DNA of 64,000 nt from positions 1-64,000 of the IMG/VR virus record IMGVR_UViG_3300035703_000009; one strand, given 5' to 3'. This document shows, piece after piece, positions 36,987 to 59,750 of the stretch (position 1 is its first letter; each line of letters begins with the position of its first letter). The position numbers and the translations under genes are program-made. The DNA is from a virus. Below the pieces are notes generated by a model. The model did not search any database. It saw only the letters and a list, made by a program, of their open reading frames with translations, and was not told the origin of the DNA.

Positions 36987-37266
36987 CTATCTTAATGTTG
37001 TTTTCTTCTTTGAACTTTTCCCAAGCAGCCGCATCCATCATGTCTGGAAAGCGTGAGCCTCCATTGCAAGACTCCTTTACATAGATCTTGCCGGGAAAGG
37101 AACATCCGCAATTGATGCAAAATTCATATACGGCACAGTCATTCTTACAGACCTGTGAACGATAAAAGACTTGCTCTTTTTCGTGCTTAGGCAAGAGGTG
37201 GAACTGGTCGCCCAGCATCTTTAGGTTGCCCTCAATGAACTGGTAGATTTTCTTAGGGGTTATCAT
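36964..37266 (-). CDS. Cys-rich hypothetical protein (100 aa)
   Basis: CKNDCAVYEFCINCGCSFPGK cluster. Overlaps its neighbours by a few nt. Confidence 0.35.
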   Translation of the reverse strand: MITPKKIYQFIEGNLKMLGDQFHLLPKHEKEQVFYRSQVCKNDCAVYEFCINCGCSFPGKIYVKESCNGGSRFPDMMDAAAWEKFKEENNIKIDDLLHRH

Positions 37267-39921: not shown

Positions 39922-39932
39922 GAGCGTTTAGA

Positions 39933-41530: not shown

Positions 41531-41546
41531 ATTTAAAAATTGTTTT

Positions 41547-43809: not shown

Positions 43810-44366
43810 AGTTGTGGGGTTATGTAAGCTACACCGCTATTTGTGAGGCTAGACGTGCTAAAGGTTACAGTATAATTAAGTTTTCCATAAATTTCATCTA
43901 GCGAGTTGTTCACGTAGCTCAAATTAAGAGGTTGGCCTCGATAGATATCGTATCCGAACTTAGGATTTTCATTTTCATCAGGAACAAAAAAATCATGAAT
44001 AGCAATAACTGGGATTATTTGCTTTTTTTTAATCTCAAAAAGTTCATCTAAAAGAGGCCAGTACTCTTCCCAATGCGCATCTAAAAAGAAAAAAGTATTT
44101 GAAGTTAAGGATTTGCTGCGTATAATTTCTGGGCTATTTCCTAAAATTAGCTCACAATTTGTAATCTCTTTTAAAGTCTGTTCAGCTATCTTGTAGTTTT
44201 GCAAATCATTTTCTACTGTAAAAACCTTGGAAAAATACGGCGCAACTATCCTGGCAGATTCTCCAAGATAAGATCCAGTTTCAAAAAAAACATCTATTTT
44301 GTATTTTTTGGATAAGTTAATAGTCCACTCTAATAGTTGAGGATCTGAATACGCAGGTCTAGTCAT
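43806..44366 (-). CDS. TylF/MycF-like class I SAM-dependent O-methyltransferase
   Basis: FFETGSYLGESARIVA resembles ETGVFRGGS. A D..H motif (FLDAHW) lies downstream. Confidence 0.4.
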   Translation of the reverse strand: MTRPAYSDPQLLEWTINLSKKYKIDVFFETGSYLGESARIVAPYFSKVFTVENDLQNYKIAEQTLKEITNCELILGNSPEIIRSKSLTSNTFFFLDAHWEEYWPLLDELFEIKKKQIIPVIAIHDFFVPDENENPKFGYDIYRGQPLNLSYVNNSLDEIYGKLNYTVTFSTSSLTNSGVAYITPQL

Positions 44367-44376
44367 CGTAGTTCAT

Positions 44377-45138
44377 TTATTTTTTAAACACTGGGATGTT
44401 TTGCATCTTGTGTGAATTTTGAGTGTTAAAACTTCGGTAAATCCCTATTACTTCTTTTTCTCTAGCTGAAAGCTTGTCCAGATCAGCGGCAGTAAAATAA
44501 GGATTTTTTTCTAAAAACTGCATAGCCCATTCAAGTTCAGCATAGGAAGCACCTATTTGATCTTCATCGCTTCGTCCGTCTTCCCAGAGTCCATCAGTTG
44601 GTTTTGCTTTAATAATTGATCTAGATATTCCCAAATCTTCCCCTAGCTCCCATACCTCAGTTTTTAATAAATCAGCAATAGGGCTAATATCTACTCCTCC
44701 ATCTCCATATTTTGTAAAGAAACCGACTCCAAAGTCTTCTACTTTGTTGCCTGTTCCAACAACCAGCCCATGATTCTCAGTAGCGATTTGATAGAGAGTC
44801 ATCATTCTGAGTCTTGACCTAGAGTTAGCCAACGCAAGTTTGTTATCTTTTGTAAACAACGACTTAAAATTTTCAAAAACTTGGGTAAGATTCAACTCAA
44901 TTGATTCAACATTTGAGAAGTTGCTCTTTAACCAAGAAATGTGTTCATCTGCTCTAGTTAACTGATCTGGCGCTTGATGAATAGGCATGCTTACAACAAT
45001 GGTTTTTATTCCGGTCATTGCACAAAGAGTAGAAACAACGGCAGAGTCTATTCCTCCAGAAACTCCTATAATAAATGTTTTAAGATTAGCCGATTTTAAA
45101 TAATCATTCAACCACTTTGAAATTTGTTGTTGTAACAT
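44377..45138 (-). CDS. nadE: NH3-dependent NAD+ synthetase
   Basis: FIIGVSGGIDSAV PP-loop. GFFTKYGDGGVDISPI is nearly identical to E. coli NadE GFFTKYGDGGTDINPL. 253 aa. Confidence 0.8.
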   Translation of the reverse strand: MLQQQISKWLNDYLKSANLKTFIIGVSGGIDSAVVSTLCAMTGIKTIVVSMPIHQAPDQLTRADEHISWLKSNFSNVESIELNLTQVFENFKSLFTKDNKLALANSRSRLRMMTLYQIATENHGLVVGTGNKVEDFGVGFFTKYGDGGVDISPIADLLKTEVWELGEDLGISRSIIKAKPTDGLWEDGRSDEDQIGASYAELEWAMQFLEKNPYFTAADLDKLSAREKEVIGIYRSFNTQNSHKMQNIPVFKK

Positions 45139-46204
45139 TCTTGATTTGATTTTTTACTTCTTCTCGATTATCTAATACTAACACTTCATATCCAAGTTCT
45201 GCTAAAGCTACTGCGTATTTTAGCTGTTGAGACTCCTCAATTAAGGTACTTTCTGCCTTATATGTAACGTATGGTAACTCTACTTTAATTGATTTATCGG
45301 GATTAGCTTTAATAAAGTCCTCGATTTGATATTGTAAATGTTTTTCATTCATTTCATCGGTTGCTTTAGAGATTACTGCATCGATTCCTACTTCTTCGCC
45401 ACACTTAGCTAGTGCTCTATTATCCCTAGGAAAACAGGGACCTCCGAATCCAAAACCAGGTCTTAAATATTTGTTTCCAATTCTTGAGTCAGTTCCGATC
45501 GCCTTTAAAACGACATCTGCATTGCACTCTAGTCTTTTTGCAATATCGCCGACCATGTTTGCAAAACTGATCTTGGTTGTCAAAAAGCAGTTTACTGAAA
45601 GTTTAGTCAATTCAGCTTCGGTGCAGCTCATCCTATTAAAAATTGGGCTAGAATCACACAGTCTTTCGTAAACTTGCTGTATACGATTGCCTGCATCAAG
45701 GTCAGCTTGCCCAATCAATACGTTATCACAATTTAGTTGATCTTTAATGATTGTGCCTTGTGCTATAAATTCTGGATTATAGGAGACTTTATAATTGTAT
45801 TCAGATAGCTTATTTTGAAGAGTCTCGCAATATCCAGGAAAGGTGGTACAATTTATTATTAAGTCTTTTCTTGTTTCTTGTTTTCCAAAAGAGATTAGCT
45901 TTTCTGCAATCTGCTCTATTTGTGAATGGTCATATTTCCAATCGTTAGTTGAAGGAGTTCTGACCACAACAAAAATGAGATTACTCTCTAGCGCTCTTTC
46001 CAAATTAGTTGTAAATTCTACATTTTTAGATTCAATCAAAAATTCATTTACGTATGGTTCTGATGTTCGAAAAGACTTTGAAGAAAGAGCATCTATGTAA
46101 TCTTGAGAAACATCTACGCCTAGTACAAAATATCCTTTTCTCTCTAAATTTAAAGCTAAACATAAGCCAAGTTTACCTACTCCGATTATCGAAATTTTGT
46201 TCAT
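45104..46204 (-). CDS. nucleotide-sugar 6-dehydrogenase (UDP-glucose/UDP-ManNAc dehydrogenase family)
   Basis: ISIIGVGKLG N-terminal Rossmann motif. GFGFGGPCFPRD contains the catalytic Cys motif. Confidence 0.75.
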   Translation of the reverse strand: MNKISIIGVGKLGLCLALNLERKGYFVLGVDVSQDYIDALSSKSFRTSEPYVNEFLIESKNVEFTTNLERALESNLIFVVVRTPSTNDWKYDHSQIEQIAEKLISFGKQETRKDLIINCTTFPGYCETLQNKLSEYNYKVSYNPEFIAQGTIIKDQLNCDNVLIGQADLDAGNRIQQVYERLCDSSPIFNRMSCTEAELTKLSVNCFLTTKISFANMVGDIAKRLECNADVVLKAIGTDSRIGNKYLRPGFGFGGPCFPRDNRALAKCGEEVGIDAVISKATDEMNEKHLQYQIEDFIKANPDKSIKVELPYVTYKAESTLIEESQQLKYAVALAELGYEVLVLDNREEVKNQIKNVTTTNFKVVE

Positions 46205-46868
46205 TTTTTACCATTTTTTGATTATTTATCGTTTTTTTAGTTAAGTGCTTAGTATTTTTGATAAAACGATCTATTATGAAATCGTAATTTACTTCTTTTT
46301 TTTCTATGTCGCTATGTCCTGGAATCTGAATAGCAGCTAACGGATAGCTACCGAAACACTCAAACTTACTTTGAACATTTTTTGCGAGCCATACATCAAT
46401 TATTTCGATGTTATTATTTTCAAAAGCATGCAATATAAAGTCAAATATTGTAGAATTATACGCTATTGCGTGTGCAGCATAACAGTTAGTTATTTTTAAG
46501 AGGTTTGGGCTCACTTGACTAAGTGAGGAATGACTATTATATCCAAGGTAATAGAGAGCCCAATGAGTCCTCTGTAGCTGATCTATCGCAGGAGGAATAA
46601 AGTTAATATTCATTAGTTCAAAGTCATCTTCGAAGACCAAAACATTTTTTAAGCCTAATGCTTTTGCTCTTTTGATTGTTTCTATGTGAGAAAGTAGACA
46701 GCCTTGACGACCGTTGCCGTCTGGAGGAACTATGCCTGAGAGTCTCTCAACGCGATCAGCTATTCCTAGCTGGTTAAAAATAGTCAACGCTCTAGCTAAG
46801 CGATCTGGTCTAGAATCTAAATTAATTAAGTAAATCTTTTGAAAATAATTAAATGCTTCCTTTATCAT
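46173..46868 (-). CDS. GT25-family glycosyltransferase
   Basis: IYLINLDSRPDRL and VFEDDFEL motifs. Confidence 0.5.
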   Translation of the reverse strand: MIKEAFNYFQKIYLINLDSRPDRLARALTIFNQLGIADRVERLSGIVPPDGNGRQGCLLSHIETIKRAKALGLKNVLVFEDDFELMNINFIPPAIDQLQRTHWALYYLGYNSHSSLSQVSPNLLKITNCYAAHAIAYNSTIFDFILHAFENNNIEIIDVWLAKNVQSKFECFGSYPLAAIQIPGHSDIEKKEVNYDFIIDRFIKNTKHLTKKTINNQKMVKNEQNFDNRSR

Positions 46869-47482
46869 GCGTCAATTTTACCCAGATGACAAACAACGTA
46901 ATCTGGAGTATCTATTTTATAGTGTTTTTCCTTTAAGATATGACTAATACTGGTCCAATCATGGCCATATCCGTCCGCCCATTGAAATGAGCAAGCACGA
47001 CGGTGGCAAATTGAACTTGTACCGATCCTATTTGCCTTGGGCTCGACCGTCCTTTTCCATTTTTTTTCTCCATTAAAGATATAATCGTCATAGTAACACC
47101 AAACATACTCTGAATCTTTAAAGCCACTAAGTATCTCAAGGTGTGTACTTCCAAAATAATCATCACTGTCTAAATAGCACACAATCTCGCCTGTGGATTG
47201 AGTTAAACCGGCTTGCCTAACTGTTCCGCTAAATAAGGGTTGTTTTGGAAGTTCAATCAAACGCACAGCTGAAAAATTAGAGTATTTTTCTCGAGTTATT
47301 TTTGAAGTTTTTTCGCAGCCGTCACTCACAATTATGAGCTCAGCACTCTTAAAAGTCTGGTCCAAAAAAGAATTTACTGCGCGTCTAAATTTGAACTCAC
47401 GATTTGAGGCAGCTTCAAACCCTCCACTAGTGTAGTGATCTAAATATGAAGCCATGATTACAGTTATCCTTGGAGAATTCAT
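46865..47482 (-). CDS. GT2-family glycosyltransferase
   Basis: ITVIMASY...IIVSDGC and YLDSDDYF (DxD) motifs. Confidence 0.5.
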   Translation of the reverse strand: MNSPRITVIMASYLDHYTSGGFEAASNREFKFRRAVNSFLDQTFKSAELIIVSDGCEKTSKITREKYSNFSAVRLIELPKQPLFSGTVRQAGLTQSTGEIVCYLDSDDYFGSTHLEILSGFKDSEYVWCYYDDYIFNGEKKWKRTVEPKANRIGTSSICHRRACSFQWADGYGHDWTSISHILKEKHYKIDTPDYVVCHLGKIDA

Positions 47483-48195
47483 GACAGTTCGTTGATTTTT
47501 AAAAAAGTTGGCTTAAAAGCACATAGATCAAAACATACATCCAGCTTTCCATGAGAAAAACCCATCTTTTTATACTCAGAAACATCACGATTTGAGATCC
47601 CAGGAATCCTAGGAGTTATTCCTTGAAAATGTATTATTGGAGAACTAGTAATGATTGCAAAATTCCATCCTTTTCTATAGAGCATATCATATAGGTAATC
47701 ATCTCCGCAAAAAAAGTGCAGATTTCTTGGAATTTGAGAGTATGCGGACCTACGCATGGTAAAGTCCCAACCTTGACGGTACTTACCATGAAAAATTCGA
47801 TATTCAAGTTGTGTACAAGACTGATAATTTGGGTGATTTGTTGAGTGAGCAACGCAGCCTACTCGCGGTTCTCTTTCAAAGACGTCAAGAGTGTCCTTAA
47901 TGAAATTTTTTGGAATTATTAGGTCGTTATTTAAAAAACAGCACAACTCATAATTATTTTTAAGAGCAAAATCGTTCCACACGTGGTTTAGTGGACGATT
48001 TTGTCCTGTATATTCTATCTTCTTTAAAAAGGAAAAAGAAAGTTGATCTAGGGACTCTCTAGTGCCGGGCTCAGTAGACCCATTATCGACGACTGTCAAC
48101 TCGAAATCCAGGCAACTCTGAACCGACAGTTGCGTAATTAGATCAATTGTATACTTTATATGATTTCTGTTAATTATTATTACGCCTAATTTCAT
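47479..48195 (-). CDS. GT2-family glycosyltransferase
   Basis: LGVIIINRN...LTVVDNGS N-terminal GT-A signature. Confidence 0.5.
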   Translation of the reverse strand: MKLGVIIINRNHIKYTIDLITQLSVQSCLDFELTVVDNGSTEPGTRESLDQLSFSFLKKIEYTGQNRPLNHVWNDFALKNNYELCCFLNNDLIIPKNFIKDTLDVFEREPRVGCVAHSTNHPNYQSCTQLEYRIFHGKYRQGWDFTMRRSAYSQIPRNLHFFCGDDYLYDMLYRKGWNFAIITSSPIIHFQGITPRIPGISNRDVSEYKKMGFSHGKLDVCFDLCAFKPTFLKINELS

Positions 48196-49052
48196 AAAGA
48201 ATCGTATATTTTAGTAAATTCGTTTACTATTGTTTGAGGATGCCAGTGTTGTTCCATCCAACTCCTACTTTCCTTTCCTTTTTCAAGAATAAAATCAAGA
48301 CCGGCATCGACTATTTTGTTTAGTTCCGTCTCAAGGGAATTGATCCAAACGTTGAAAAAAGGAGAAACTTGAGCACCAGAGGAAGAGAGTAGTATTTTTT
48401 CAACGTCTGGAGAAAGAGAGCATATTGTGAGTTTGCCAAGTGCAAGTCCTTCTAAACCTGATCTATGATAGCTTGAAGTAACGCACTCATCTATAATTAT
48501 GTTGCATTTTGATTTGCGAGCAATACAAGCATCAAGAGAGACTCCAGTTATCACATCAATTTCTACAGAGGTGCCATACTCTCTTTTAATCTTGTTAAGT
48601 ACTGCAAGAGTCTGATCATATCCCTTATCGTGCCACTTACCGAGTTTTTTTGTTCGGCTTGGAGAAAAACCTATTTTAATTGCATGTGAAACCTGCTGAG
48701 AAGAATATTGCGGAGTTGTGAAGTCAATCACATTTCTAACTATTGAGCAGCCTGAATACTCTGGCAGAGTTGCATGATATTGAGAAATTACTAACTTGCG
48801 GTCAACTCGGCTTTTTAGGTCTACTTGAAAAGGTTCGCTATGGTATTGCAAAACAGTTTTGATCCCATGCCGATTGCCAGGTAAGAGATTATGAGCATGT
48901 AGAATACTACCTGCTGGGAAGGCACGCATAGCCGGTGCACCTAATCCTGCCATCTCGCATCGATAGCCTTGACCGAATTTATTGATGGCTTTAGCTAATT
49001 CTAAAGGAGCTTGAGCAATAGGTGTTTGTCTATAGTGATAAACTATTTTCAT
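48192..49052 (-). CDS. hypothetical protein (286 aa), possible glycosyltransferase
   Basis: Embedded in the glycosyltransferase run. No motif recognised. Confidence 0.3.
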   Translation of the reverse strand: MKIVYHYRQTPIAQAPLELAKAINKFGQGYRCEMAGLGAPAMRAFPAGSILHAHNLLPGNRHGIKTVLQYHSEPFQVDLKSRVDRKLVISQYHATLPEYSGCSIVRNVIDFTTPQYSSQQVSHAIKIGFSPSRTKKLGKWHDKGYDQTLAVLNKIKREYGTSVEIDVITGVSLDACIARKSKCNIIIDECVTSSYHRSGLEGLALGKLTICSLSPDVEKILLSSSGAQVSPFFNVWINSLETELNKIVDAGLDFILEKGKESRSWMEQHWHPQTIVNEFTKIYDSL

Positions 49053-49055
49053 TAT

Positions 49056-50513
49056 TTACTTTTTTTTTAATATTCCTGGTTCGCCTTTTTCAAATTTACA
49101 AGTAAGATACTTTAACTCTAACAAGTAATTATGCACACTAGAAATATTCTTATCTGAATTTGATCTAAATATTGAATTTAATCCGTTTGTGTAGCCGTTA
49201 AAACCAAACAGGGACAGTGAATAGTGCGGAATCTTTAACTCCTCTAATAACAAAATCATGCTAAGTCCACTAGTTGGAAGAAGATAGCTTTTTTTTAAAG
49301 CGGCAGATATAGAAATTAGAGCAGGGTAGTGGTAGTTTAGTATTTTCTTGCTAGGATAACTAGCACAAATGTCACTGACTGCTTTGTGCCAAAGATCAAT
49401 AGGTTTTGAGAAAACTATCAAATAATCTGAGGGTTGGTCTAAATTAAATCTAGCCTGCCGAAATATGCAGTGAACGCTTGTTTTAGTGCCGGTGTGAGTA
49501 GGTTCGATTGGATAACCGTTGAATCTAATAACTACATCATGTGAATCAATTAGTTCTCCATGTTGGTGTTCTAAAAGTTCTGAAGAATTTGCGATTATTG
49601 CTATTTTTTTGCCAGTTAAATACTCTTTGAATGAACTTAATGAAGTTAACTTAGATTTAAGTAAAAATCTGTTTTCAGAAGATCTATTCAGTGTAATTGG
49701 TATTGAACTATTTTGCTGTTTTACATGAGGAATCGGCCTAGGTTGTTCTTCGGCATTTATAGTTTGTCTATCAGAATTAAAAGAACTCGGCTGGACTAAA
49801 AATTGGCTACTTTCTTTGTTTTTAAAAAGCCACACTTGATTGATTTTAGAATATTGAGCTGAGTTGTTTAGAGTTGTGAAAAGAATTACATCTTTAGACT
49901 CTAAGGAAGCTCGCATAGTTATAAATTTAGAGTCTAAGTATTCATTTGAAAAAGAAATGTTAGCTTCAGAATAAAAACTAGGATTTAGACAAGAATTCAA
50001 GTGATTATTTAGTTGTAAATCTAACGAATTGGAAGTTAACATTCTATTTGAGAGTTCATGGTAAACTTCTTCAGATAATGATATTTTTTCACTTAGGTGA
50101 AAAAAGAGAACTGAATTGAGCGCTTTGCCTAACTTATTTTCAGATATGAAATTACAGCTTTTTTGAAAAATTGAATAGTTAGAAAAGTATAGTAAACTTT
50201 CGTTTTCTGTAGATTCATTAAATACTGTCCATTTTAGAGCAGAGTTCACCAGTTCAAAATATTGCACTCGTCCCTTATATTTGTCTATTACACTAAAAAT
50301 AGGATGCGACGTTTGTAATTTTATTGCGAGCTTTGGATAAATTTTAAGAAGAATGTCATAATTCCTAGTGGATAATTGATCCATAGGATGATCGAGTAGG
50401 TTAATTGTACCAGTAAACCATGGATTGTTTTTTATAAAAGAAAAAATACTGGTTCTAAGTAGGTGAAAATTTTTGTTAGTGGCCTCAGTATACGCATTAA
50501 CTATCTTATCCAT
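49056..50513 (-). CDS. two-domain protein with C-terminal GT29-like (eukaryotic-type) sialyltransferase domain
   Basis: KKIAIIANSSELLEHQHGELIDSHDVVIRFNGYPIEPTHTGTKTSVHCIF matches sialylmotif L (C.VVGNSG.L..S..G..ID.HD.V.R.N.AP....DVG.KT). LPTSGLSMILLLEE...FGF matches motif S, and HNYLLE matches motif VS (Hx4E). The N-terminal 280 aa are unassigned. Confidence 0.55.
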   Translation of the reverse strand: MDKIVNAYTEATNKNFHLLRTSIFSFIKNNPWFTGTINLLDHPMDQLSTRNYDILLKIYPKLAIKLQTSHPIFSVIDKYKGRVQYFELVNSALKWTVFNESTENESLLYFSNYSIFQKSCNFISENKLGKALNSVLFFHLSEKISLSEEVYHELSNRMLTSNSLDLQLNNHLNSCLNPSFYSEANISFSNEYLDSKFITMRASLESKDVILFTTLNNSAQYSKINQVWLFKNKESSQFLVQPSSFNSDRQTINAEEQPRPIPHVKQQNSSIPITLNRSSENRFLLKSKLTSLSSFKEYLTGKKIAIIANSSELLEHQHGELIDSHDVVIRFNGYPIEPTHTGTKTSVHCIFRQARFNLDQPSDYLIVFSKPIDLWHKAVSDICASYPSKKILNYHYPALISISAALKKSYLLPTSGLSMILLLEELKIPHYSLSLFGFNGYTNGLNSIFRSNSDKNISSVHNYLLELKYLTCKFEKGEPGILKKK

Positions 50514-51151
50514 TTTACTTGATCTAAGTCTTTTTGAGTGTCGACGTCAACTACATCTTCGATCGGGTAGAACACGGTAGACGGGCCGTACATATTCTTA
50601 TTTAATTTATAGAGAGCAGAAGCTCTAAAGATGCACATGTAGTGACTGATCTCAAAGCACTTTGGATAGTCTTGGCGTCGGTATAGATCGTGTTCAAGTA
50701 AAGGCTTGCCGAAAACGCCGTCTGCTCCATGCTCCTGTAACATGAGATAAGGTGAGACTTTAAGTTCCTTCTTACATAGCATAGAATCAGCAAGACCTAA
50801 GTCAGCAAACTGACAGTAATATTCATAAGCCGCGTAAATCTCTTTCCAGGTCCTCTCTGGATAGGTTAAGTAGAGCATTATTACTTCAGCAGACATGGGA
50901 AGCCCGACGTTTTTTACGGCGTGTTGCATCACGTCCCGAATGTTAGCAGAGTCGTCTGATAGTTCAGAAGGACGATCGATTGCACAACACCCATGCTTAA
51001 TGGCTAACTGAAATATCTCAGGGTCGTCGGTCGTCACAAAAACACGTCTACGAAGAGACTCTGGAATCGAGTCTATTGTCGCTTTAAAAAGCTTACGGTT
51101 CTTAAAGGGTAGGCCCTTGGAACCCAGTCTGGCTGGAATGATGATGTTCAT
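50501..51151 (-). CDS. neuA: CMP-nonulosonic acid synthetase (NeuA-like acylneuraminate cytidylyltransferase)
   Basis: MNIIIPARLGSKGLPFKNRKLF matches NeuA/KdsB IIPARGGSKGIxxKN. Confidence 0.75.
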   Translation of the reverse strand: MNIIIPARLGSKGLPFKNRKLFKATIDSIPESLRRRVFVTTDDPEIFQLAIKHGCCAIDRPSELSDDSANIRDVMQHAVKNVGLPMSAEVIMLYLTYPERTWKEIYAAYEYYCQFADLGLADSMLCKKELKVSPYLMLQEHGADGVFGKPLLEHDLYRRQDYPKCFEISHYMCIFRASALYKLNKNMYGPSTVFYPIEDVVDVDTQKDLDQVKWIR

Positions 51152-51765
51152 AGTTGATCGAACTCTTTGAGAGTTATTTTTGGAATCTGTAGGTTACTAG
51201 ACTCGCTCAAGTTGTAAAAAGATACTCCGCGCCTTTCAAGCTCAGCTCTAAGCTTTTGATAAGCAAGATTGACCTTAGTCAGGTGCTTAGTCTTAACGAC
51301 ACTGTGCGCTCCATCCTTGGGATTATAAAAGTGCCCGTCTGTAAAGTCGACACCAATAACGCCGATGTGTTTTGCTCCCAATCGATACGCTAGGCAGACC
51401 GCACAATACGGCGAATTCAAATAGTGATCGAGATGGTTCTTTTTATCTAGACAAGTCAGCTCTCGAGTACCTAACTCAAAATAGATTAGGCTAGTGTGTC
51501 GCCAGCCCCTGGCGCAAGTAAAGAGGTGTTTTGACTTTGACTGTACTACTAGGTCCTTGCGTTTACCGACAAACCGTAATGGGCTGTCTGTGACTAGTAA
51601 ATAGGTCGGAGTAAAAAGGGCCGGCACGTCGTTGACTCCGATCGTGGTGTATCGTTCCGCATGTTCAGCAAAGCCCAGCAGAGAAGTGCCACAGCCACAG
51701 ACTATGATCTTTTCACCTGAATGCGGACGGTCAATGTCCTTAAGAGATTTGATTAAGCTAGACAC
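51148..51765 (-). CDS. hypothetical protein, possible Maf/DUF115-like glycosyltransferase
   Basis: KIIVCGCGTSL resembles the xIxGNGPSL motif of Maf/Cst-II-like enzymes. Weak. Confidence 0.25.
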   Translation of the reverse strand: MSSLIKSLKDIDRPHSGEKIIVCGCGTSLLGFAEHAERYTTIGVNDVPALFTPTYLLVTDSPLRFVGKRKDLVVQSKSKHLFTCARGWRHTSLIYFELGTRELTCLDKKNHLDHYLNSPYCAVCLAYRLGAKHIGVIGVDFTDGHFYNPKDGAHSVVKTKHLTKVNLAYQKLRAELERRGVSFYNLSESSNLQIPKITLKEFDQL

Positions 51766-51830: not shown

Positions 51831-52826
51831 ATGGATCATTATTCAACCCTTGGTGTCTCTAAGAACGCAACAGACGATGAGATTAAAAAAGCCTATCGTC
51901 AAATGACGTTAAAGTACCATCCCGACAGAAATCAGGACGATCCAGGAGCGGCTGACCAGTTTAAGAAGATAGCGGCTGCTTATGAAGTGTTAAGCGATTT
52001 AAAAAAGAAGGCAGAATACGATGGAGCTGCACAAAAGGCCTCACATGACTGGAACTATAACTTTAACGACGATTTTACCACCTTTTCAAATAACTTTAGG
52101 AACTCAGAGTTTAGAAGAAAGTCAAACGAACGTGCTAGAGCCTCACAGGGCAAGACCCACATGGGTCCAGTCGATACTTCATACTTGGACATCAATTTAA
52201 ACTGTGAAATCGATTTTAAAGAGACTGTCTTGGGTAAAAAGGTCGACATCACGTTTACTCGCAAAAAAATCGTCTATACTGGAGCGGCTGGCAACTTACT
52301 TAAGTACGTCAAAGAGGACGAAGAGAAGGAGATCAAGGTAAACTTTGACTTGCGTAAAACCTATTTACAGATCAAAAAGGAGGGACAAAACTATGTGGCT
52401 AAGGTCCGAGTGAGTAAGTTCGGTAACGAGGACGTCTCAGTAAGACCCAACATCTGGGGAGACATGGAGCAGTATCCTCTTACTGGAGAGTTATACATCA
52501 CAGTAACTATCATTATGCCTCCAGGAGTCGAACTTGAAAACAATAACATCATACACAGGGTTGAGATCCCACTATATAAGGCAATCATACCTGGAGAAAA
52601 AGTAGAGATTGAGACCGTCCTAGATAAAAAATATGAGGCTGAGATCAAGAGCCCAACTCACCTAAACGATCTTAAGCTAGTGATTAAGGAACAGGGCATA
52701 GCCGACTCATTTGGCACGATCGGTGATTATATCGTTAGATTCTCCATACTGGCTCCAAGAGTTGCTGATTTTAGTAAATCCAAAGTAGAGAGTTTGCGTA
52801 CAATATTGGTTGACTCCGGCGCATAA
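51831..52826 (+). CDS. J-domain (DnaJ-like) protein
   Basis: N-terminal [53 protein letters not shown] carries the HPD motif. The remaining 260 aa lack DnaJ zinc-finger motifs. Confidence 0.75.
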
Positions 52827-54883: not shown

Positions 54884-56554
54884 ATGGCACGTACTAAAAT
54901 TTTCAGACGTTCAAGTGATAAGAACTTGGCCGCAACCTGGAAGCCAGTCCTTGAGAGCTATGGTGCAAATGTTGAAAAGACACCTTGGTTAGCAGAATAT
55001 GCTCACAACCACGGAATCTTCGACAACACTACTCCATTGTTCGAACAGGCTACTGCTCCCGGTCTATTCTTCCAACAACCAGCCTCTTTAGGCGGCTATG
55101 CTGGACAGATCTCCGCACCAACTAACTCGATGACTCCGTTCTCGGGTGGTGCAAAAAATGCATACGGTAACGTAGGCGACACCGTAGGTTCTGGTGACAA
55201 ATTTCCTTCATTGCTTCCTGTAGCTATCCAAGTTGCAGCTAAGACAATTGGATTTGACCTTGTTCCAGTTATCCCAATGGATTCTCCAGTAGGATTCCTT
55301 CCTTATCTTGATTACTTGTACACAGGTGGTCGTACAGATAAAGCATTTGATCCTTACATGGTAAAAGTTGTAGGAATCAACGCGAATGACTTCCCAGCTG
55401 GTCCAGCGTATGGTGATTCAATCACTGTATCTGGTAGTGGAGCTGGCGATTTCGATCTAGAATTCGTAGGCTACTCTCGTGTTGACGGTAACTTGATCAT
55501 CAAAATAGTTGCAGATAATGGCTCAAACATCATCGCTACTTCTCTTGAAGGTAACACTTTGACGATTGGAGTTGATACTTCAGCTACAGTTGATGCTGGT
55601 GCAGTACAATTAGTTTCTGCTCTTGAAAACCACATCTCTGGTTTCACTTCAGTATCTGATGATGACTATGCAAATTCTGGAAACTTTGTTGGTCCTTACC
55701 TTCCAACTACCGGAGCAGTTCCTGGTTCAATGAAGCGTGAAGCTTCTGAGCTTTCTAAGTTCCGTCAAATGGGCTTAAGAATGTTTACCAAATTCGTTGA
55801 GGCTGAAACTGATCAAGTTGCTATCTCTGCAACTGTTGAGCAGATCCAAGACCTTAACCGCGTTTGGAACTATGACGTTATCTCAATGCTTGAGAACGTT
55901 GCAGTTAACGACATCGCTCAATCAATCAACAAGCGTCTTGTAGACCGCGTGTTCACCCTTGCTGACGTTCACTCTAATGAAATCGATCTAGTTGAAGGTA
56001 CTGGAATCACTAACCTAGACTTAACTGCAGGTTCTGGTGGTTTCGAAAACATCTCAACTTTACAACGTAGAGTTGTTACCAAGATCCTTGAACTTGCTAA
56101 CTTGATCTACCACAGAGGTCGTTTCGGAGCAGCTTCTTACCTTGTTACCACAGGTCGTGTTGCTTCTGCTCTTGCAGACGTAGCTGGTTACTCAATCGCT
56201 CAAGTTCCATCTGACATGTCAACTACTGCAGGTCAATTGTACCCAGCAGGTAAAGTGTATGGCGTTCAGGTATATGTTGATCCTAACTTAAGTTGGGGAG
56301 ATACGCGTATCGTTCTTGGACGTAAGGGTGCTGACGAAGAACCAGGTGTTAAATTCATGCCTTACATCATGGCGGAATCACTTCAAACTATCGCTGAAGG
56401 AACAATGTCTCCTAAGATCGGTATGAAGTCGCGTTACGCTATCACCGAGGCTGGATGGCATCCTGAGACTCAGTATGTTAGCATGAACCTTCAAGGTCAA
56501 GACCTTGGTGTTCTAACTGGTAGCATCGCTCCACAGCCAAGCGGCACGCTATAA
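54884..56554 (+). CDS. gp23: major capsid protein (T4 gp23-like)
   Basis: ATWKPVLESYGANVEK resembles gp23 NKWKPLLEGEGLPE. AAKTIGFDLVPVIPMDSPVG resembles IPNLIAFDICGVQPMNSPTG. C-terminal GMKSRYAI resembles GFKTRYGI. 556 aa. Confidence 0.7.
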   Translation: MARTKIFRRSSDKNLAATWKPVLESYGANVEKTPWLAEYAHNHGIFDNTTPLFEQATAPGLFFQQPASLGGYAGQISAPTNSMTPFSGGAKNAYGNVGDTVGSGDKFPSLLPVAIQVAAKTIGFDLVPVIPMDSPVGFLPYLDYLYTGGRTDKAFDPYMVKVVGINANDFPAGPAYGDSITVSGSGAGDFDLEFVGYSRVDGNLIIKIVADNGSNIIATSLEGNTLTIGVDTSATVDAGAVQLVSALENHISGFTSVSDDDYANSGNFVGPYLPTTGAVPGSMKREASELSKFRQMGLRMFTKFVEAETDQVAISATVEQIQDLNRVWNYDVISMLENVAVNDIAQSINKRLVDRVFTLADVHSNEIDLVEGTGITNLDLTAGSGGFENISTLQRRVVTKILELANLIYHRGRFGAASYLVTTGRVASALADVAGYSIAQVPSDMSTTAGQLYPAGKVYGVQVYVDPNLSWGDTRIVLGRKGADEEPGVKFMPYIMAESLQTIAEGTMSPKIGMKSRYAITEAGWHPETQYVSMNLQGQDLGVLTGSIAPQPSGTL

Positions 56555-56587
56555 GCGAACCTTTTAGCTAAACTAGCTATATCAAAA

Positions 56588-56618
56588 AAGAGGACCCGTA
56601 AGTCCTCTTTTTTTGTTT
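56588..56618 (+). terminator. rho-independent terminator after the capsid gene
   Basis: Hairpin aagaggac-ccgtaa-gtcctctt followed by tttttgtttt. Confidence 0.65.
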
Positions 56619-56651: not shown

Positions 56652-57020
56652 ATGGCAACTATCATGTCAACTTTTTTGGGAATACAAGCACAGTTTAAAG
56701 TGCTACACTGGCAGACCCAAACCTACTCAAAACACATGGCCTATGGAGGCATATACGAGACTCTTGACGGACTAGTCGACGAGTTCATGGAAACTTACAT
56801 GGGCAAGCATGGTCGTATCGCTCTAGAAGGAGAAAAAGACGCAATCATCCTAAGCAACATCGGCGAGATGAAAATCGAGGACTTCCTAGAAACTCTTACA
56901 GGTTTCTTATTGTCCTTTAATAATCAACTAGATAGTAGCAAGGACAGCGATCTCCTGAACCTTAGGGACGAAATGTTAGGGGCAGTCAACAAGCTAAAAT
57001 ACTTGCTCACCTTAAAATAA
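56652..57020 (+). CDS. hypothetical protein (122 aa), late-expressed
   Basis: ORF driven by the late-promoter motif. Confidence 0.5.
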   Translation: MATIMSTFLGIQAQFKVLHWQTQTYSKHMAYGGIYETLDGLVDEFMETYMGKHGRIALEGEKDAIILSNIGEMKIEDFLETLTGFLLSFNNQLDSSKDSDLLNLRDEMLGAVNKLKYLLTLK

Positions 57021-57029
57021 TAAGAAAAG

Positions 57030-57278
57030 ATGTTTGCAATACTCATACAATATGGAGCGCTTGGTGTCCTGATCCTTGGGTTGGGTGCAGCACTCTGGTA
57101 TCTACTTAAAAGGCAGATCGAAAACGAAGAAAAACTAAAGGCTAGACTCGATGCAGTCGAGCAAGACCTAGGCGATTATCTTAGAGCTGATCAGGGAAAG
57201 ATGCTGCAGGTGATTGAAAACAACACTAAGGCGCTAAAGGAACTAAGAGAAATAATCGTCAAATCCAATGAAGAATAA
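57030..57278 (+). CDS. small membrane protein with coiled coil
   Basis: N-terminal hydrophobic helix ALGVLILGLGAALWYLL. 82 aa. Confidence 0.45.
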   Translation: MFAILIQYGALGVLILGLGAALWYLLKRQIENEEKLKARLDAVEQDLGDYLRADQGKMLQVIENNTKALKELREIIVKSNEE

Positions 57279-57729
57279 AGTACTACTTCCGATCGTCTTT
57301 TTTGCGACCATTGCTGTTGCCATCGGGTACATAGCGGTCAGCGGTAAGAATCACGTAGATGCGGTCCAAGAGTCGGCTGTTCTAATTGAGCAAAGGGCTC
57401 AATTGAAAGACTCAGTCGTTAGCCTAGAATGCGTTAAGAAAGAGTCGATCAAAAAGCTAAAGGAGGCAGACTCAGTTCTCACTTCCCAAAATGAGCTGAT
57501 CACCAGCCAACAGAAAAAGATCGTCTCGCTCGACAAGGAGGCGAAGGTGGCAAAGGCCCAACCCAAGTCAGTGATGGCTATTGAGCCCAAGATAATCTAT
57601 GTGCACGACACGGTGTTCGTCACCGAAAAGAAAAACTTTTGGGGCAGGACCAAAAAGACAGTCGTCTCAGTGCAGGCCATCGACAGCGTGTTCAGCGAAG
57701 AGCAGGTCGATAGCTTAGAGACCAAATAA
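57268..57729 (+). CDS. membrane-anchored protein (153 aa)
   Basis: N-terminal TM helix VLLPIVFFATIAVAIGYIAV. Confidence 0.45.
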   Translation: MKNKVLLPIVFFATIAVAIGYIAVSGKNHVDAVQESAVLIEQRAQLKDSVVSLECVKKESIKKLKEADSVLTSQNELITSQQKKIVSLDKEAKVAKAQPKSVMAIEPKIIYVHDTVFVTEKKNFWGRTKKTVVSVQAIDSVFSEEQVDSLETK

Positions 57730-57745
57730 AATAATTAACTAGCCA

Positions 57746-59518
57746 ATGTACTCATCTGGAATCGAAATACCTAAAGTCCAATTTTCTCTGATCGCTTTTA
57801 GCCAGATCGAGCCCGGAAGCTTTTTCTTGGGCTTTGACCTGGACAATGCAGGTACGCTATCAAAAATAGACAATACTGGAACCATTACTGTGATCGAGGG
57901 AGCCGGCGGAGGCAGCTCAATTATGATTGAGGACAGTGGGTTAGGCTCAACTGTTCGTATCAATAACTGTAATTCAGCAAGCAGTTGCTCTTCAACAGTC
58001 AGTGGCGGTTATTCAAACACTGCATCGGGTAATTATGCCACAGTTAGTGGCGGTTATTCAAACACTGCATCGGGTAATTATGCCACAGTTAGTGGCGGTG
58101 AGAGCAATACCGCATCGGTTTATCATTCCACAGTTAGTGGCGGTTTTGGCAACACGACATCGGGTGGTGCTTCCACCATTGGCGGCGGGTGTAGCAACAC
58201 GGCATCGGGTTATATTTCCACAGTTAGTGGCGGTAGCCAAAATACGGCATCGGGTTATAATTCCACAGTTAGTGGCGGTATATGCAACACGTCATCGAGT
58301 AGTTCTTCCACAGTCGGCGGTGGTGCGAGCAACACGGCATCGGGTTATTGTTTTTCCACAGTCAGTGGCGGTGTGGTTAACACCGCATCGGGTGCTGCTT
58401 CCACAGTGGGTGGCGGTAGCCAAAATACGGCATCTGGTGCTGTTTCTACAGTCGGTGGCGGATGTAACAACACGGCATCGGGTTGTTCTTCCACAGTGGG
58501 TGGCGGTAGACAAAACACGGCATCGGGTTGTAATTCAACAGTCAGTGGCGGTTGCGGTAATACTATTAATGCTTTTACAACATGTTTAGGTTATAGCGTA
58601 GTTGGAAATACCATAGGCGGTGGTCAACAAAATACAATAAATTCAAATAGCGCTTATAATGCAAATGCTGGTGGTGTTACAATAGCAGGCGGTTTTAACA
58701 ATACAACATGTTCAGGTTCTTATGGGTTTAATACCATAGGTGGTGGTCGTAGCAACACGTCATCTGGTGATTATTCCACAGTAAGCGGCGGAAATGCCAA
58801 CATGGCATCGGGTTATTTTTCCACATTAAGTGGCGGTTTTAGCAACACGGCATCGAATTCTTCTTCCACAGTCGGTGGCGGTAGCCAAAATACGGCATCT
58901 GGTGCTGTTTCAACAGTCGGTGGCGGATGTAGAAACACGGCATCAGGTTATTGTTCAACAGTCGGTGGCGGTTTTTGCAATAATGCATCGGGTGCTCGCT
59001 CTACTATTGGAGGAGGGTGTCGCAACACGGCATCGTGTACTTATTCTACAGTCGGTGGCGGTAGGAGCAACACGGCATCGGGTGCTTATTCCACAGTCGG
59101 TGGCGGTTTTTGCAACACGACATCGGGTTCTATTTCCACAGTTGGTGGCGGATATTGCAACACGGCGTCGAGTAATTCTTCCACAGTGGGTGGCGGATGT
59201 TGCAACACAGCATCTGGTGCTTGTTCCACAGTAAGCGGCGGGGTTAACAACACGGTATCGGGTGGTTATTCCACAGTCGGTGGCGGATGTAGAAACACGG
59301 CATCGGGTTGTAGAAGTTTTGTTGCAGGTGGTCAATGTAATAACACAAACAGTTGCAATGACGCTATGATAGTGGGCAGCTGTATCACGGCTGATCGCGC
59401 ATGTGCTACATTTGTCAATAACCTATCAATCAAGAGCATACCTACTTCGAGCGCGGGCTTACCTAGCGGCTCAGTCTGGCGGTGCACAGCTGACAATACT
59501 TTGCGTATCATTGCATAA
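57746..59518 (+). CDS. fibre/decoration-like protein with about 30 tandem 15-aa Gly/Ser/Thr/Asn/Cys-rich repeats
   Basis: 590 aa. After a 75-aa N-terminal domain, the repeat unit is TVSGGYSNTASGNYA (consensus S/GGxxNTASGxxSTV) through residue 530. Distinct C-terminal domain. Confidence 0.6.
   Translation: MYSSGIEIPKVQFSLIAFSQIEPGSFFLGFDLDNAGTLSKIDNTGTITVIEGAGGGSSIMIEDSGLGSTVRINNCNSASSCSSTVSGGYSNTASGNYATVSGGYSNTASGNYATVSGGESNTASVYHSTVSGGFGNTTSGGASTIGGGCSNTASGYISTVSGGSQNTASGYNSTVSGGICNTSSSSSSTVGGGASNTASGYCFSTVSGGVVNTASGAASTVGGGSQNTASGAVSTVGGGCNNTASGCSSTVGGGRQNTASGCNSTVSGGCGNTINAFTTCLGYSVVGNTIGGGQQNTINSNSAYNANAGGVTIAGGFNNTTCSGSYGFNTIGGGRSNTSSGDYSTVSGGNANMASGYFSTLSGGFSNTASNSSSTVGGGSQNTASGAVSTVGGGCRNTASGYCSTVGGGFCNNASGARSTIGGGCRNTASCTYSTVGGGRSNTASGAYSTVGGGFCNTTSGSISTVGGGYCNTASSNSSTVGGGCCNTASGACSTVSGGVNNTVSGGYSTVGGGCRNTASGCRSFVAGGQCNNTNSCNDAMIVGSCITADRACATFVNNLSIKSIPTSSAGLPSGSVWRCTADNTLRIIA
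57990..59330 (+). repeat. 45-nt tandem repeat array (about 30 copies) within the fibre-like gene
   Basis: Unit acagttagtggcggttattcaaacactgcatcgggtaattatgcc and close variants. High nucleotide identity between copies. Confidence 0.8.
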
Positions 59519-59522
59519 AAAT

Positions 59523-59556
59523 AAAAAAGGAGAACTTAACGTTCTCCTTTGTATTA
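59523..59556 (+). terminator. rho-independent terminator after the fibre-like gene
   Basis: Hairpin aaggagaac-ttaac-gttctcctt followed by a T-rich tail. Confidence 0.6.
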
Positions 59557-59750
59557 TAAGGTGGGCAGCCTTTAACTTTGGAAATTAGAGATTATAAATG
59601 ATTTTTGAATTCTTACAGTTATACTCTTTGAAATCTTGAATCTTGAAGTTTGTACGGCAATATCATATCCGGCATCCTGATCAAGTATTGTTAAAACCAA
59701 ACGGTTTCGACGATAATTCTAGTTGCCTCAGTCTCCGGCTACCCTTTTCT

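What the first reader, a model, noticed from the sequence alone, without database searches (positions are those of the whole stretch)
57990..59330. About 30 near-identical 45-nt tandem repeats encoding a Cys-containing Gly/Ser/Thr beta-helix-like fibre
The repeats are conserved at the nucleotide level (for example ccacagttagtggcggt recurs many times). This implies recent expansion or ongoing homogenisation and makes the fibre length hypervariable through slipped or unequal recombination. The unit (SGGxxNTASGxxSTV) contains periodic Gly-Gly and frequent Cys. It is compatible with a triangular beta-helix or needle, like T4 gp5 or gp12 C-termini, or a YadA-like head. All three forward frames and the reverse frames stay open across the array, which produces spurious overlapping ORFs.
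Basis: seen in the sequence. Interest (0 to 1): 0.6.

Follow-up and report, generated by a model that had tools for sequence, protein, structure and literature searches.

The report
Phage adhesin fibre with UspA1-like beta-roll
A T4-like phage known only from metagenomes carries an accessory 590-residue fibre gene whose roughly 30 fifteen-residue repeats have the same beta-roll fold as the sticky head of bacterial trimeric adhesins; this is a common but uncharacterised kind of phage fibre, and here the exposed corner residues of the repeats change unusually fast.

Summary
The repeat array is real, but it is not near-identical. Gene 57746-59518 (+) holds two 45-nt arrays (57991-58553 and 58753-59309). 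They give 25 canonical units, STV[S/G]GGxxNTASGxx, plus about 5 irregular ones. Mean unit identity is 72%.

Only the coding frame is open throughout, so the claim that all frames stay open fails.

The fold is a left-handed parallel beta-roll of the 15-residue UspA1 type:
- Pfam UspA1_rep, E=2.6e-27
- phmmer to PDB 3PR7, E=3e-30

It is not a T4 gp5/gp12 beta-helix. It is also not a true autotransporter: it has no membrane anchor, no stalk and no signal peptide.

The protein is modular. A 75-80 aa N-terminal adapter is shared with tandem fibre paralogues in related phages, and a Cys-rich C-terminal cap is shared with many fibres.

Relatives that share both ends carry 5-21 units, so shaft length varies between lineages.

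In 62 related phage contigs the DnaJ-protease-capsid-...-topoisomerase synteny is conserved. None has this gene in that slot, so it is accessory cargo there.

Synonymous codons are position-specific and often rare, which shows the units share ancestry. The x-codons have dN far above dS.

Verdict: an ordinary class of protein, a new member of it, with a clear signal of diversifying selection.

The parts
57746..59518 (+). Fibre/adhesin gene, 590 aa. G+S+T+N make up 60% of residues; there are 28 Cys.
   Evidence: The ORF and its translation. More than 5900 homologues in the protein database, many named 'tail fiber domain-containing protein' or carrying Peptidase_S74.
57746..57991 (+). N-terminal adapter domain, aa 1-82 (MYSSGIEIPKV...GFDLDN.G.LSKID..G.ITVIEG). 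Presumed docking module.
   Evidence: 52-65% identical to the N-termini of P0040, P0065, P0087 and P0091. Found on 22 further loci, often on several tandem paralogues, and also fused to shafts that lack the canonical repeat units. No PDB relative. AF2 confidence is low, pLDDT 41-67.
57992..58579 (+). Beta-roll block 1: 13 units of 15 aa (aa 83-278), with one single-residue insertion at aa 203.
   Evidence: TRF array 57991-58553; unit register and codon table; AF2 pLDDT 84-91 with periodic strands.
58580..58774 (+). Irregular middle segment (aa 279-343): degenerate or longer beta-roll turns (NTIGGG... motifs). Possibly a kink or hinge.
   Evidence: Breaks the 45-nt periodicity. Homologous segments recur several times in P0086 and P0031. 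AF2 pLDDT 45-60.
58775..59314 (+). Beta-roll block 2: 12 units of 15 aa (aa 344-523), richer in Cys.
   Evidence: TRF array 58753-59309; unit table. phmmer aligns aa 328-566 to the UspA1 head, 3PR7 residues 14-249.
59315..59515 (+). C-terminal cap (aa 524-590): the last irregular turns plus a terminal beta-hairpin (SF[VI].GG.CNN...ITADR.C.TFVN.LSIK.IPTS..GLPSG.VW....L.I).
   Evidence: 47-70% identical to the C-termini of 15 of the 120 listed homologues, which have different N-termini. In the AF2 model of aa 464-590 the last 25 residues have pLDDT 92-93 and form a hairpin. No Peptidase_S74, no YadA anchor.
58001..58099 (+). Exact 54-nt tandem duplication (58001-58054 = 58046-58099). The most recent unit duplication.
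   Evidence: Longest exact internal repeat; units 83 and 98 share 42 of 45 nt.
58398..58479 (+). 82-nt tract that is 95% identical (78/82) to 58863-58944 in block 2. A segmental duplication or gene conversion between the blocks, variable codons included.
   Evidence: Alignment; units 219 and 374 share 44 of 45 nt, units 234 and 389 share 39 of 45.
59526..59550 (.). GC-rich hairpin flanked by A and T runs. Terminator-like site at the point where the + operon converges with the minus-strand topoisomerase operon.
   Evidence: and the sequence itself.
57030..57729 (+). orf82 (57030-57278) and orf153 (57268-57729): two small proteins, each with an N-terminal hydrophobic segment and a charged, helix-prone remainder. 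They occupy the same lineage-specific slot as the fibre gene.
   Evidence: Sequences. Only a weak Rz-like spanin hit for orf153, E=0.002. Absent from 61 of 62 related loci; orf82 is present only in the near-identical L004.

Best explanation
Gene 57746-59518 encodes a modular phage fibre or adhesin with three parts.

1. A conserved N-terminal adapter of about 80 aa. The same adapter heads several tandem fibre paralogues in related phages. I infer that it docks the protein onto the virion.
2. [quoted passage not shown] It is homologous to the 15-residue, double-glycine 'UspA1-type' head of trimeric autotransporter adhesins. Each 45-nt unit encodes one full turn: STV[S/G]GG forms one strand and corner, and NTASG forms the other.
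3. A Cys-containing C-terminal cap of about 65 aa that ends the roll.

Inferred from UspA1, BpaC and YadA: three chains pack into a rod roughly 14-15 nm long (about 30 layers at 4.8 A each).

The two dipeptides x7x8 and x14x15 vary in every layer. I take them to lie at the turns and to form the ligand-binding surface. That placement is inferred from the repeat pattern, not read from coordinates.

Shown here:
- the fold class;
- the modular architecture;
- the common DNA ancestry of the units;
- strongly accelerated amino-acid change at the x codons;
- variable unit number among relatives;
- the gene's status as accessory cargo in a variable slot between the head-gene operon and the topoisomerase operon.

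Inferred, not shown:
- trimerisation;
- attachment to the virion;
- a role in binding the host surface, and hence in host range;
- stabilisation by disulfides.
For: Fold:
- Pfam UspA1_rep E=2.6e-27; LbR_Ice_bind E=4e-7.
- phmmer to the UspA1 head 3PR7, E=3e-30 over aa 328-566, running into the end of the head.
- The AF2 model has mean pLDDT 75.5 (85-91 in block 1), a strictly periodic beta pattern and no real helix (one 3-residue turn at aa 18-20 only).
- UspA1 is the one solved beta-roll head with 15-residue layers and an extra Gly (PMC9543794). That matches the GG/GGG seen here.

Fibre context:
- Among more than 5900 homologues, many carry Peptidase_S74 and are named tail fibre or trimeric autotransporter adhesin.
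- The cap-sharing homologue P0035 sits downstream of a 2129-aa lysozyme-bearing protein.
- In relatives the N-terminal adapter heads 2-4 tandem fibre paralogues of 338-1502 aa.

Accessory status:
- 62 loci with a 51-96% identical capsid protein keep the order DnaJ-protease-MCP-DUF5856-[gap]-orf143-orf94-topoII.
- The gap runs from 265 bp to 8.8 kb and never holds this gene.
- A relative (L028 and L070 are the same 176-kb contig) keeps its adapter-bearing fibres about 80 kb from the capsid gene.

Evolution:
- Rare codons are fixed by position: TCC, ACG and TCG, each 10-11% of genome usage, are the major codons at positions 1, 10 and 12. Thr is ACA at position 2 and ACG at position 10.
- Pooled Nei-Gojobori estimates: scaffold codons dS 0.50, dN 0.11; x codons dS 0.50, dN 1.29; codons 14-15 dS 0.14, dN 1.23.
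- Codon 14 is NNT in 25 of 25 units, against 11 expected from codon usage.
Against: - There is no direct evidence that the protein is in the virion. Its neighbours are two small membrane-type proteins and a DUF5856 protein, not baseplate genes.
- PHROGs and NCBIfam give no hit.
- The AF2 model is a monomer, so trimerisation is untested. The plant ice-binding protein with the same roll is not a TAA-type trimer fibre (my recollection that it is monomeric; not checked here).
- The N-terminal adapter has no solved relative and a low-confidence model.
- The dN/dS estimates pool 300 non-independent pairs of very short units and are near saturation at non-synonymous sites.
- The assignment of the x positions to exposed corners was not checked against model coordinates.
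Confidence: 0.65

Rival explanations
1. It is a triple-stranded (intertwined) beta-helix needle or fibre of the T4 gp5 C-terminal or gp12 type, in which three chains wind around a common axis.
For: Periodic Gly-rich short repeats in a T4-like phage (gp23-like capsid protein, gp20-like portal). Both folds are trimeric beta-solenoids.
Confidence: 0.03
2. It is a monomeric beta-roll of the ice-binding or antifreeze type (LbR_Ice_bind), or another soluble surface-binding protein released at lysis. On this reading it is not a virion fibre.
Against: The match to trimeric adhesin heads is far stronger. The N-terminal adapter shared by tandem paralogues, and shafts and caps exchanged between proteins, are typical of phage fibres. 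Many homologues end in the Peptidase_S74 chaperone of trimeric fibres. There is no signal peptide for export (sequence).
Confidence: 0.1
3. It is a head fibre or capsid decoration protein (functionally like Hoc or the phi29 head fibres), encoded with the head genes.
For: It is the last gene on the strand that carries the prohead protease and the gp23-like capsid protein, 1.2 kb downstream of the capsid gene.
Against: A terminator-like hairpin follows the capsid gene. The slot is empty or filled with unrelated cargo (guanylate-cyclase-like, LRR) in 61 of 62 relatives. Relatives keep adapter-bearing fibres at a separate locus about 80 kb from the capsid gene. A cap-sharing homologue lies beside a lysozyme-bearing giant protein that looks tail-associated.
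Confidence: 0.12
4. The NNT pattern at the x codons is written by a mutagenic mechanism (a diversity-generating retroelement or similar), not by selection.
For: Codons in which the first two bases are randomised and the third is fixed are what adenine mutagenesis of AAY codons produces (established knowledge of DGRs). Codon 14 is NNT in 25 of 25 units.
Against: None of the roughly 75 window ORFs scanned against Pfam or PHROGs matched a reverse transcriptase. There is no template copy of the array elsewhere in the window. Scaffold adenines (AAC at position 9, ACA at position 2) are invariant, which is unlike DGR targets. The variation is between units of one gene, not between a template repeat and a variable repeat.
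Confidence: 0.03

Closest known systems
UspA1 head domain of Moraxella catarrhalis (PDB 3PR7, 3NTN; Pfam PF18792 UspA1_rep)
   Same: 15-residue layers with a double or triple Gly corner and an Asn: STIGGGxxNxAxGxY in UspA1 against STV[S/G]GGxxNTASGxx here. About 34% identity over about 240 residues. Same left-handed parallel beta-roll.
   Different: UspA1 is a bacterial outer-membrane protein with a signal peptide, neck, long coiled-coil stalk and beta-barrel anchor. The phage protein has none of these. It has a phage-specific N-terminal adapter and a short C-terminal cap, about twice as many layers, and many Cys.
BpaC C-terminal head (PDB 7O23) and YadA head (PDB 1P9H)
   Different: Those heads have 14-residue layers. 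The BpaC repeats are nearly identical and acidic. Here the layers differ at four positions each and are almost uncharged.
Metagenomic 'tail fiber domain-containing proteins' with beta-roll repeats and a C-terminal Peptidase_S74 chaperone (for example P0005, P0020, P0037). Similar proteins occur in uncultured Caudovirales, Klosneuvirus and Solivirus.
   Same: Same repeat family (E down to 1e-122; BFVD matches). Same modular logic of adapter, shaft and tip.
   Different: This protein lacks S74. It belongs instead to a subfamily with a 65-aa Cys-containing cap. In that subfamily Cys makes up 2.8% of residues, against 0.6% in the other homologues.
Lolium perenne ice-binding protein (PDB 3ULT; Pfam PF21300)
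   Same: The same two-strand-per-turn beta-roll with 14-15-residue layers.
   Different: A single-domain protein of about 115-130 residues with no adapter or cap (chain length); a plant protein, and monomeric as far as I recall. The similarity is weaker than to the adhesin heads.
Bdellovibrio mosaic adhesive trimer (MAT) chimeric fibres (PMC10769870; NCBIfam NF053851)
   Same: Trimeric fibres built from exchangeable modules and used for prey recognition. A homologue of the query (P0005) weakly matches the MAT N-terminal model, E=2e-5, below the cut-off.
   Different: The query itself has no match to that model. The relationship is one of design, not of demonstrated homology.

Membership tests
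Left-handed parallel beta-roll (YadA-like / UspA1-type head repeat, PF18792) | Tandem 14-15-residue layers with a conserved Gly corner and an Asn/hydrophobic inward pattern; significant profile match. | tested here: met
   UspA1_rep scores 93.1 bits against a cut-off of 27. phmmer E=3e-30 to 3PR7. 25 units in register with invariant T2, G5, G6 and N9.
Left-handed parallel beta-roll (YadA-like / UspA1-type head repeat, PF18792) | Three-dimensional fold: two short strands per layer stacked into a roll. | tested here: met
Left-handed parallel beta-roll (YadA-like / UspA1-type head repeat, PF18792) | Obligate homotrimer with the rolls packed around a three-fold axis. | not testable with these tools
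   Only single-chain prediction was available. Trimerisation is inferred from homology.
Trimeric autotransporter adhesin (type Vc secretion) | C-terminal YadA-type beta-barrel membrane anchor (PF03895). | tested here: not met
   No such Pfam hit. The protein ends in a 65-aa cap with a beta-hairpin.
Trimeric autotransporter adhesin (type Vc secretion) | Coiled-coil stalk and neck connectors. | tested here: not met
   The AF2 secondary structure contains no helix of 4 or more residues.
Trimeric autotransporter adhesin (type Vc secretion) | N-terminal Sec signal peptide. | tested here: inconclusive
   By eye the N-terminus (MYSSGIEIPKVQFSLIAFSQIEPG...) lacks a basic n-region and a hydrophobic core. 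No signal-peptide predictor was available.
Phage tail fibre or spike with an intramolecular chaperone (Peptidase_S74, PF13884) | C-terminal S74 auto-cleaving chaperone domain. | tested here: not met
   Absent from the query, although present in many homologues.
T4 gp5C / gp12-type triple-stranded beta-helix | Intertwined three-chain helix with its own repeat signature; structural match to gp5 or gp12. | tested here: not met
Ice-binding beta-roll (LbR_Ice_bind, PF21300) | Profile match above the gathering score. | tested here: met
   30.4 bits against a cut-off of 30, so marginal. This overlaps the UspA1-type repeats and reflects the shared fold.
Ice-binding beta-roll (LbR_Ice_bind, PF21300) | Ice-binding activity; small stand-alone protein. 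| not testable with these tools
   Needs an experiment.
DGR variable protein | A nearby reverse transcriptase and a template repeat with adenine-specific differences. | tested here: not met
   No RT among the window ORFs scanned. No second copy of the array. Only the 64-kb window could be tested.

The most novel reading that the evidence does not exclude
The array works as a self-diversifying binding surface. New layers arise by unit or segment duplication. Their four corner residues are then rapidly replaced under positive selection (dN/dS about 2.6 overall and about 9 at codons 14-15), giving a Tyr/Cys/Ser/Ala-rich multivalent face. The phage thereby retunes host recognition without a mutagenic retroelement.

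In addition, the many Cys may lock the rod with disulfides after release. The Ser/Thr-rich faces may be decorated by the phage's own sugar-synthesis genes. A nonulosonic-acid and glycosyltransferase operon lies at 36-52 kb, and sulfotransferase/glycosyltransferase clusters adjoin the fibre loci of relatives.
Probability: 0.2. Interest if true: 0.6.

Novelty: new member of a known kind. Interest (0 to 1): 0.33.

Why it matters
Beta-roll fibres of this kind are abundant in uncultured phages and giant viruses: more than 5900 database relatives were found. Three full-text literature searches turned up no paper describing a phage fibre with this repeat (two returned nothing; for the third only titles and abstracts were screened).

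This gene gives a clean example of how such a fibre is put together: an exchangeable adapter, a shaft of variable length and a cap. It also shows how the fibre evolves, with a conserved scaffold and fast-changing corner residues.

That makes the gene a usable guide for predicting receptor-binding residues and for engineering binding surfaces on a very regular scaffold.

It does not reveal a new kind of system.

Tried and rejected
- tblastn and megablast against 50,697 phage records found nothing for the gene or its 5.3-kb surroundings. For the protein query the low-complexity filter probably played a part.
- The exact protein is not on record, and neither is P0065.
- An exact 26-mer from the gene start has no match in viral or metagenome contigs. 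The adapter-profile scan of metagenomes found only 46-69% identical relatives. Repeat-number polymorphism within one phage population therefore could not be assessed.
- PHROGs and NCBIfam give no hit for the fibre.
- The adapter profile has no PDB relative.
- The T4 late-promoter consensus TATAAATA is not enriched: 1 site against 3 expected, and none near the gene.
- A DGR was considered because of the NNT codons and rejected (no RT, no template, invariant scaffold adenines).
- A link between the fibre gene and the glycan operon was considered. The operon's left-end genes (CMP-sugar synthetase, GT29-like, orf205, NeuB) are conserved in most relatives that lack the fibre in this slot. The association is therefore not specific to this gene.
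- There are no paralogues of the adapter, cap or repeats elsewhere in the window.
Full report
**1. The observation**

Tandem Repeats Finder reports two 45-nt arrays, at 57991-58553 and 58753-59309. Each has 12.4 copies and 73% matches. Periods of 90, 135 and 180 nt score only slightly better.

Both arrays lie in one ORF, 57746-59518 (+), 590 aa. Put in register, the protein holds 25 canonical units, S-T-V-[S/G]-G-G-x-x-N-T-A-S-G-x-x:
- 13 units span aa 83-278, with one single-residue insertion;
- 12 units span aa 344-523;
- 65 residues of irregular units separate the two blocks, and there are degenerate units at both ends.

Shuffled sequence gives 0. There are 28 Cys, mostly at the x positions.

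Two statements in the finding are wrong.
- The units are not near-identical. Mean pairwise identity is 72% (82% in the eleven scaffold codons, 43% in the four x codons). Only two pairs exceed 90%.
- The other frames are not open. Only the coding frame is free of stops. One alternative forward frame stays open for 199 aa and again for 134 aa. The third forward frame has 35 stops, and the reverse frames have 13-22.

**2. What the protein is**

The evidence converges on a left-handed parallel beta-roll of the type found in the heads of trimeric autotransporter adhesins.
- Pfam gives UspA1_rep (E=2.6e-27) and, marginally, the grass ice-binding beta-roll (30.4 bits against a cut-off of 30).
- phmmer against all PDB sequences finds the UspA1 head, 3PR7, at E=3e-30. 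It aligns aa 328-566 of the query to residues 14-249 of the chain, that is, through the last layers of that head.
- An AlphaFold2 model built with 40 homologues has mean pLDDT 75.5 (85-91 in block 1). It has a strictly periodic strand pattern and no helices.
- Foldseek failed on the long curved model.

The BpaC paper notes that UspA1 is the special case with 15-residue layers and an extra conserved glycine (PMC9543794). That is exactly the GG/GGG layer seen here. At 4.8 A per layer (same paper), about 30 layers give a rod of roughly 14-15 nm.

**3. It is not an autotransporter**

No YadA-type anchor is found, and no helix long enough for a stalk is predicted. The N-terminus does not look like a signal peptide (by inspection only).

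Instead the protein is modular in the way phage fibres are.
- **N-terminal adapter.** The first 80 or so residues are 52-65% identical to the N-termini of P0040, P0065, P0087 and P0091.
- **C-terminal cap.** The last 65 or so residues (…ITADRxCxTFVNxLSIKxIPTSxxGLPSGxVW…) are 47-70% identical to the C-termini of 15 of the 120 best homologues, which have quite different N-termini. A separate AF2 model of aa 464-590 gives the final 25 residues pLDDT 92-93 as a beta-hairpin.
- **Cysteine.** This cap-bearing subfamily is Cys-rich: 2.8% of residues against 0.6% in the other homologues. The query has 4.7%.
- **Wider family.** It has more than 5900 database members. Many end in the Peptidase_S74 chaperone and are named tail-fibre or adhesin proteins. 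BFVD matches are uncharacterised proteins of uncultured Caudovirales and of giant viruses.

**4. Genomic setting**

The window is from a T4-like phage. It encodes a gp23-like capsid protein, prohead protease, gp20-like portal, UvsW-like helicase, family-B polymerase and topoisomerase II. The capsid protein is below 40% identical to that of any of 50,697 deposited phages.

IMG/VR, however, holds 62 loci with a 51-96% identical capsid protein. In these loci the order DnaJ-protease-capsid-DUF5856-[gap]-orf143-orf94-topoII is conserved. The gap ranges from 265 bp (empty) to 8.8 kb. It carries unrelated cargo such as guanylate-cyclase-like and LRR proteins, and never this fibre gene.

Only the near-identical but truncated contig L004 shares orf82. 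The three-gene stretch orf82-orf153-fibre (57030-59518) is therefore lineage-specific cargo in a variable slot at the convergence of two operons. It ends at a hairpin at 59526-59550.

The phage clade does have adapter-bearing fibres elsewhere.
- On the 176-kb contig that also gave L028, they lie about 80 kb from the capsid gene.
- There they form a conserved locus: a 439-aa and a 297-aa protein, then 2-4 tandem beta-roll paralogues, then a 158-aa protein, then sulfotransferase and GT25 genes.
- The same arrangement is seen in L001, L066 and L067.
- In L067 the fibre follows a 2129-aa lysozyme-bearing protein, which suggests a tail-associated module.

The window has a 62% identical homologue of that GT25 at 3438-4094, but no fibre locus beside it. 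Whether the phage has another fibre locus outside the window is unknown.

**5. Repeat evolution**

*The units share DNA ancestry.* The major codon at each scaffold position is position-specific and often rare in this genome.
- TCC (10% of Ser codons) at position 1; TCG (11%) at position 12.
- ACA at position 2 but ACG (10%) at position 10.
- GGC at position 5 but GGT at positions 6 and 13.

Protein-level constraint alone cannot produce this pattern, so the units derive from one 45-nt ancestor.

*Most relatives have lost this signal.* Their arrays are saturated at synonymous sites: pairwise differences of 0.5-0.66 at four-fold sites, against 0.30 here. A few independent lineages also have 'young' arrays (L072, L075, L066, L067). 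This suggests recurrent array turnover.

*The array as a whole is not new.* Pooled Nei-Gojobori dS between units is about 0.5. Two recent events are visible:
- an exact 54-nt tandem duplication (58001-58054 = 58046-58099);
- an 82-nt tract (58398-58479) that is 95% identical to 58863-58944 in the other block.

*The corner residues change fast.*

| Codon set | dS | dN |
|---|---|---|
| Scaffold codons | 0.50 | 0.11 |
| x codons, all four | 0.50 | 1.29 |
| x codons 14-15 | 0.14 | 1.23 |

Codon 14 is NNT in 25 of 25 units and codon 15 in 22 of 25, against about 11 expected from codon usage. The ancestral third base has been kept while the first two bases are near saturation. I read this as diversifying selection on the residues at the x positions, which I take to be exposed turns.

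The caveats are that the 300 unit pairs are not independent, the units are short, and non-synonymous sites are near saturation. A DGR-like mutagenic origin was considered and rejected. No reverse transcriptase was found in the ORFs scanned, there is no template copy, and the scaffold adenines are invariant (and others).

*Length varies between lineages.* Complete proteins with the same adapter and cap have 5-21 recognisable units and are 338-719 aa long; the window protein, at 590 aa, has the most units, 25. Neighbouring paralogues reach 39 units in 1502 aa. The adapter is also fused to shafts in which the canonical unit pattern is not detected (317-1076 aa). Within-population variation could not be tested, because no near-identical copy was found.

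**6. Mechanism and rivals**

The best-supported reading (confidence about 0.65) has these steps:
- the adapter docks the protein on the virion;
- three beta-rolls pack into a 14-15 nm rod, as in UspA1, BpaC and YadA;
- the variable dipeptides of about 30 layers form an extended multivalent binding surface for a host-surface ligand;
- the cap ends the roll.

Fold, modularity and evolutionary pattern are shown. Trimerisation, virion attachment and receptor binding are inferred.

The rivals are:
- a head-decoration fibre (0.12), favoured only by position;
- a soluble ice-binding-like beta-roll (0.10), favoured by a marginal Pfam hit and the confident monomer model;
- a gp5/gp12-type helix (0.03);
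- DGR-written variation (0.03).

**7. Novelty**

This is a new member of a widespread but experimentally uncharacterised class: phage and giant-virus fibres built from adhesin-head beta-rolls. Of three full-text searches for such phage fibres, two returned nothing. The third listed 15 papers, and none of those titles and abstracts describes one.

The accessory location, the high Cys content and the clear contrast between scaffold and x-position evolution are the noteworthy points. None of them makes it a new kind of system.

Noticed in passing
window 36098-51765, minus strand: An operon of about 18 genes for sugar synthesis and transfer. It encodes a NeuB-type nonulosonic-acid synthase, an NAD epimerase/dehydratase, three FkbM methyltransferases, two GT25, a GT11, two GT2, a GT29 sialyltransferase-like protein, a CMP-sugar cytidylyltransferase, a UDP-Glc/GDP-Man dehydrogenase and an NAD synthase. 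Homologues of its left-end genes (CMP-sugar synthetase, orf205, often the GT29-like protein or NeuB) recur in most related contigs. Its target (virion, host surface or DNA) is unknown.
   Followed up: partly
L001 7122-10109; L066 16592-20689; L067 11401-18869; L070 11587-13924: In relatives the tandem fibre genes are directly followed by a recurring set of genes. Not every locus has all of them: DUF7936, glycosyltransferases, a sulfotransferase, APS kinase, GT25, a cytidylyltransferase-like protein and DUF2061. This raises the untested idea that the Ser/Thr-rich fibres are glycosylated or sulfated by phage enzymes.
   Followed up: partly
window 57020-59750, and the equivalent gap in L005-L065: The interval between DUF5856 and orf143 is a hot spot for cargo across the clade. 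It is empty (265-300 bp) in about 10 loci. Elsewhere it holds guanylate/adenylate-cyclase-like proteins (L026, L062), an LRR protein (L012), unannotated 300-aa and 936-aa proteins, or up to 8.8 kb of genes that include an AAA ATPase (L047).
   Followed up: partly
window 57030-57278 and 57268-57729: Two small overlapping genes sit upstream of the fibre. Each encodes an N-terminal hydrophobic segment followed by a charged, helix-prone sequence. orf153 has a weak Rz-like spanin hit (E=0.002). They might be lysis or membrane proteins, or have something to do with the fibre.
   Followed up: no
window 51831-52826: A full-length DnaJ-type co-chaperone (J domain plus DnaJ_C) is encoded immediately upstream of the prohead protease and capsid genes. 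It is conserved at that position in nearly all 62 relatives.
   Followed up: no
window 54884-56554 and loci L004-L065: The gp23-like capsid protein is below 40% identical to any of 50,697 deposited phage genomes. The nearest are an uncultured 462-kb phage and the Lak megaphages. It nevertheless has 62 relatives at 51-96% identity in IMG/VR, on contigs up to 246 kb. This looks like a sizeable uncultured T4-like clade.
   Followed up: partly
L075 5468-9976; L074 1828-4986; L082 2410-4725: Some paralogues at the canonical fibre locus are extreme: 1502 aa with 39 units and 66 Cys (L075), 1052 aa with 28 Cys (L074), and 771 aa with 45 Cys (L082).
   Followed up: no
L076 91-2526; L077 1013-3412; L082 4749-7979; L083 8001-10715; L084 680-1633: The same N-terminal adapter is fused to bodies of 317-1076 aa in which the canonical beta-roll unit pattern is not detected. 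The adapter is therefore an exchangeable module, and the beta-roll is only one of several shafts it carries.
   Followed up: no
window 56652-57020: A DUF5856 protein (PHROG name 'starvation-inducible transcriptional regulator') follows the capsid gene after a strong terminator-like hairpin (56584-56613). It is conserved at that place in most relatives.
   Followed up: no
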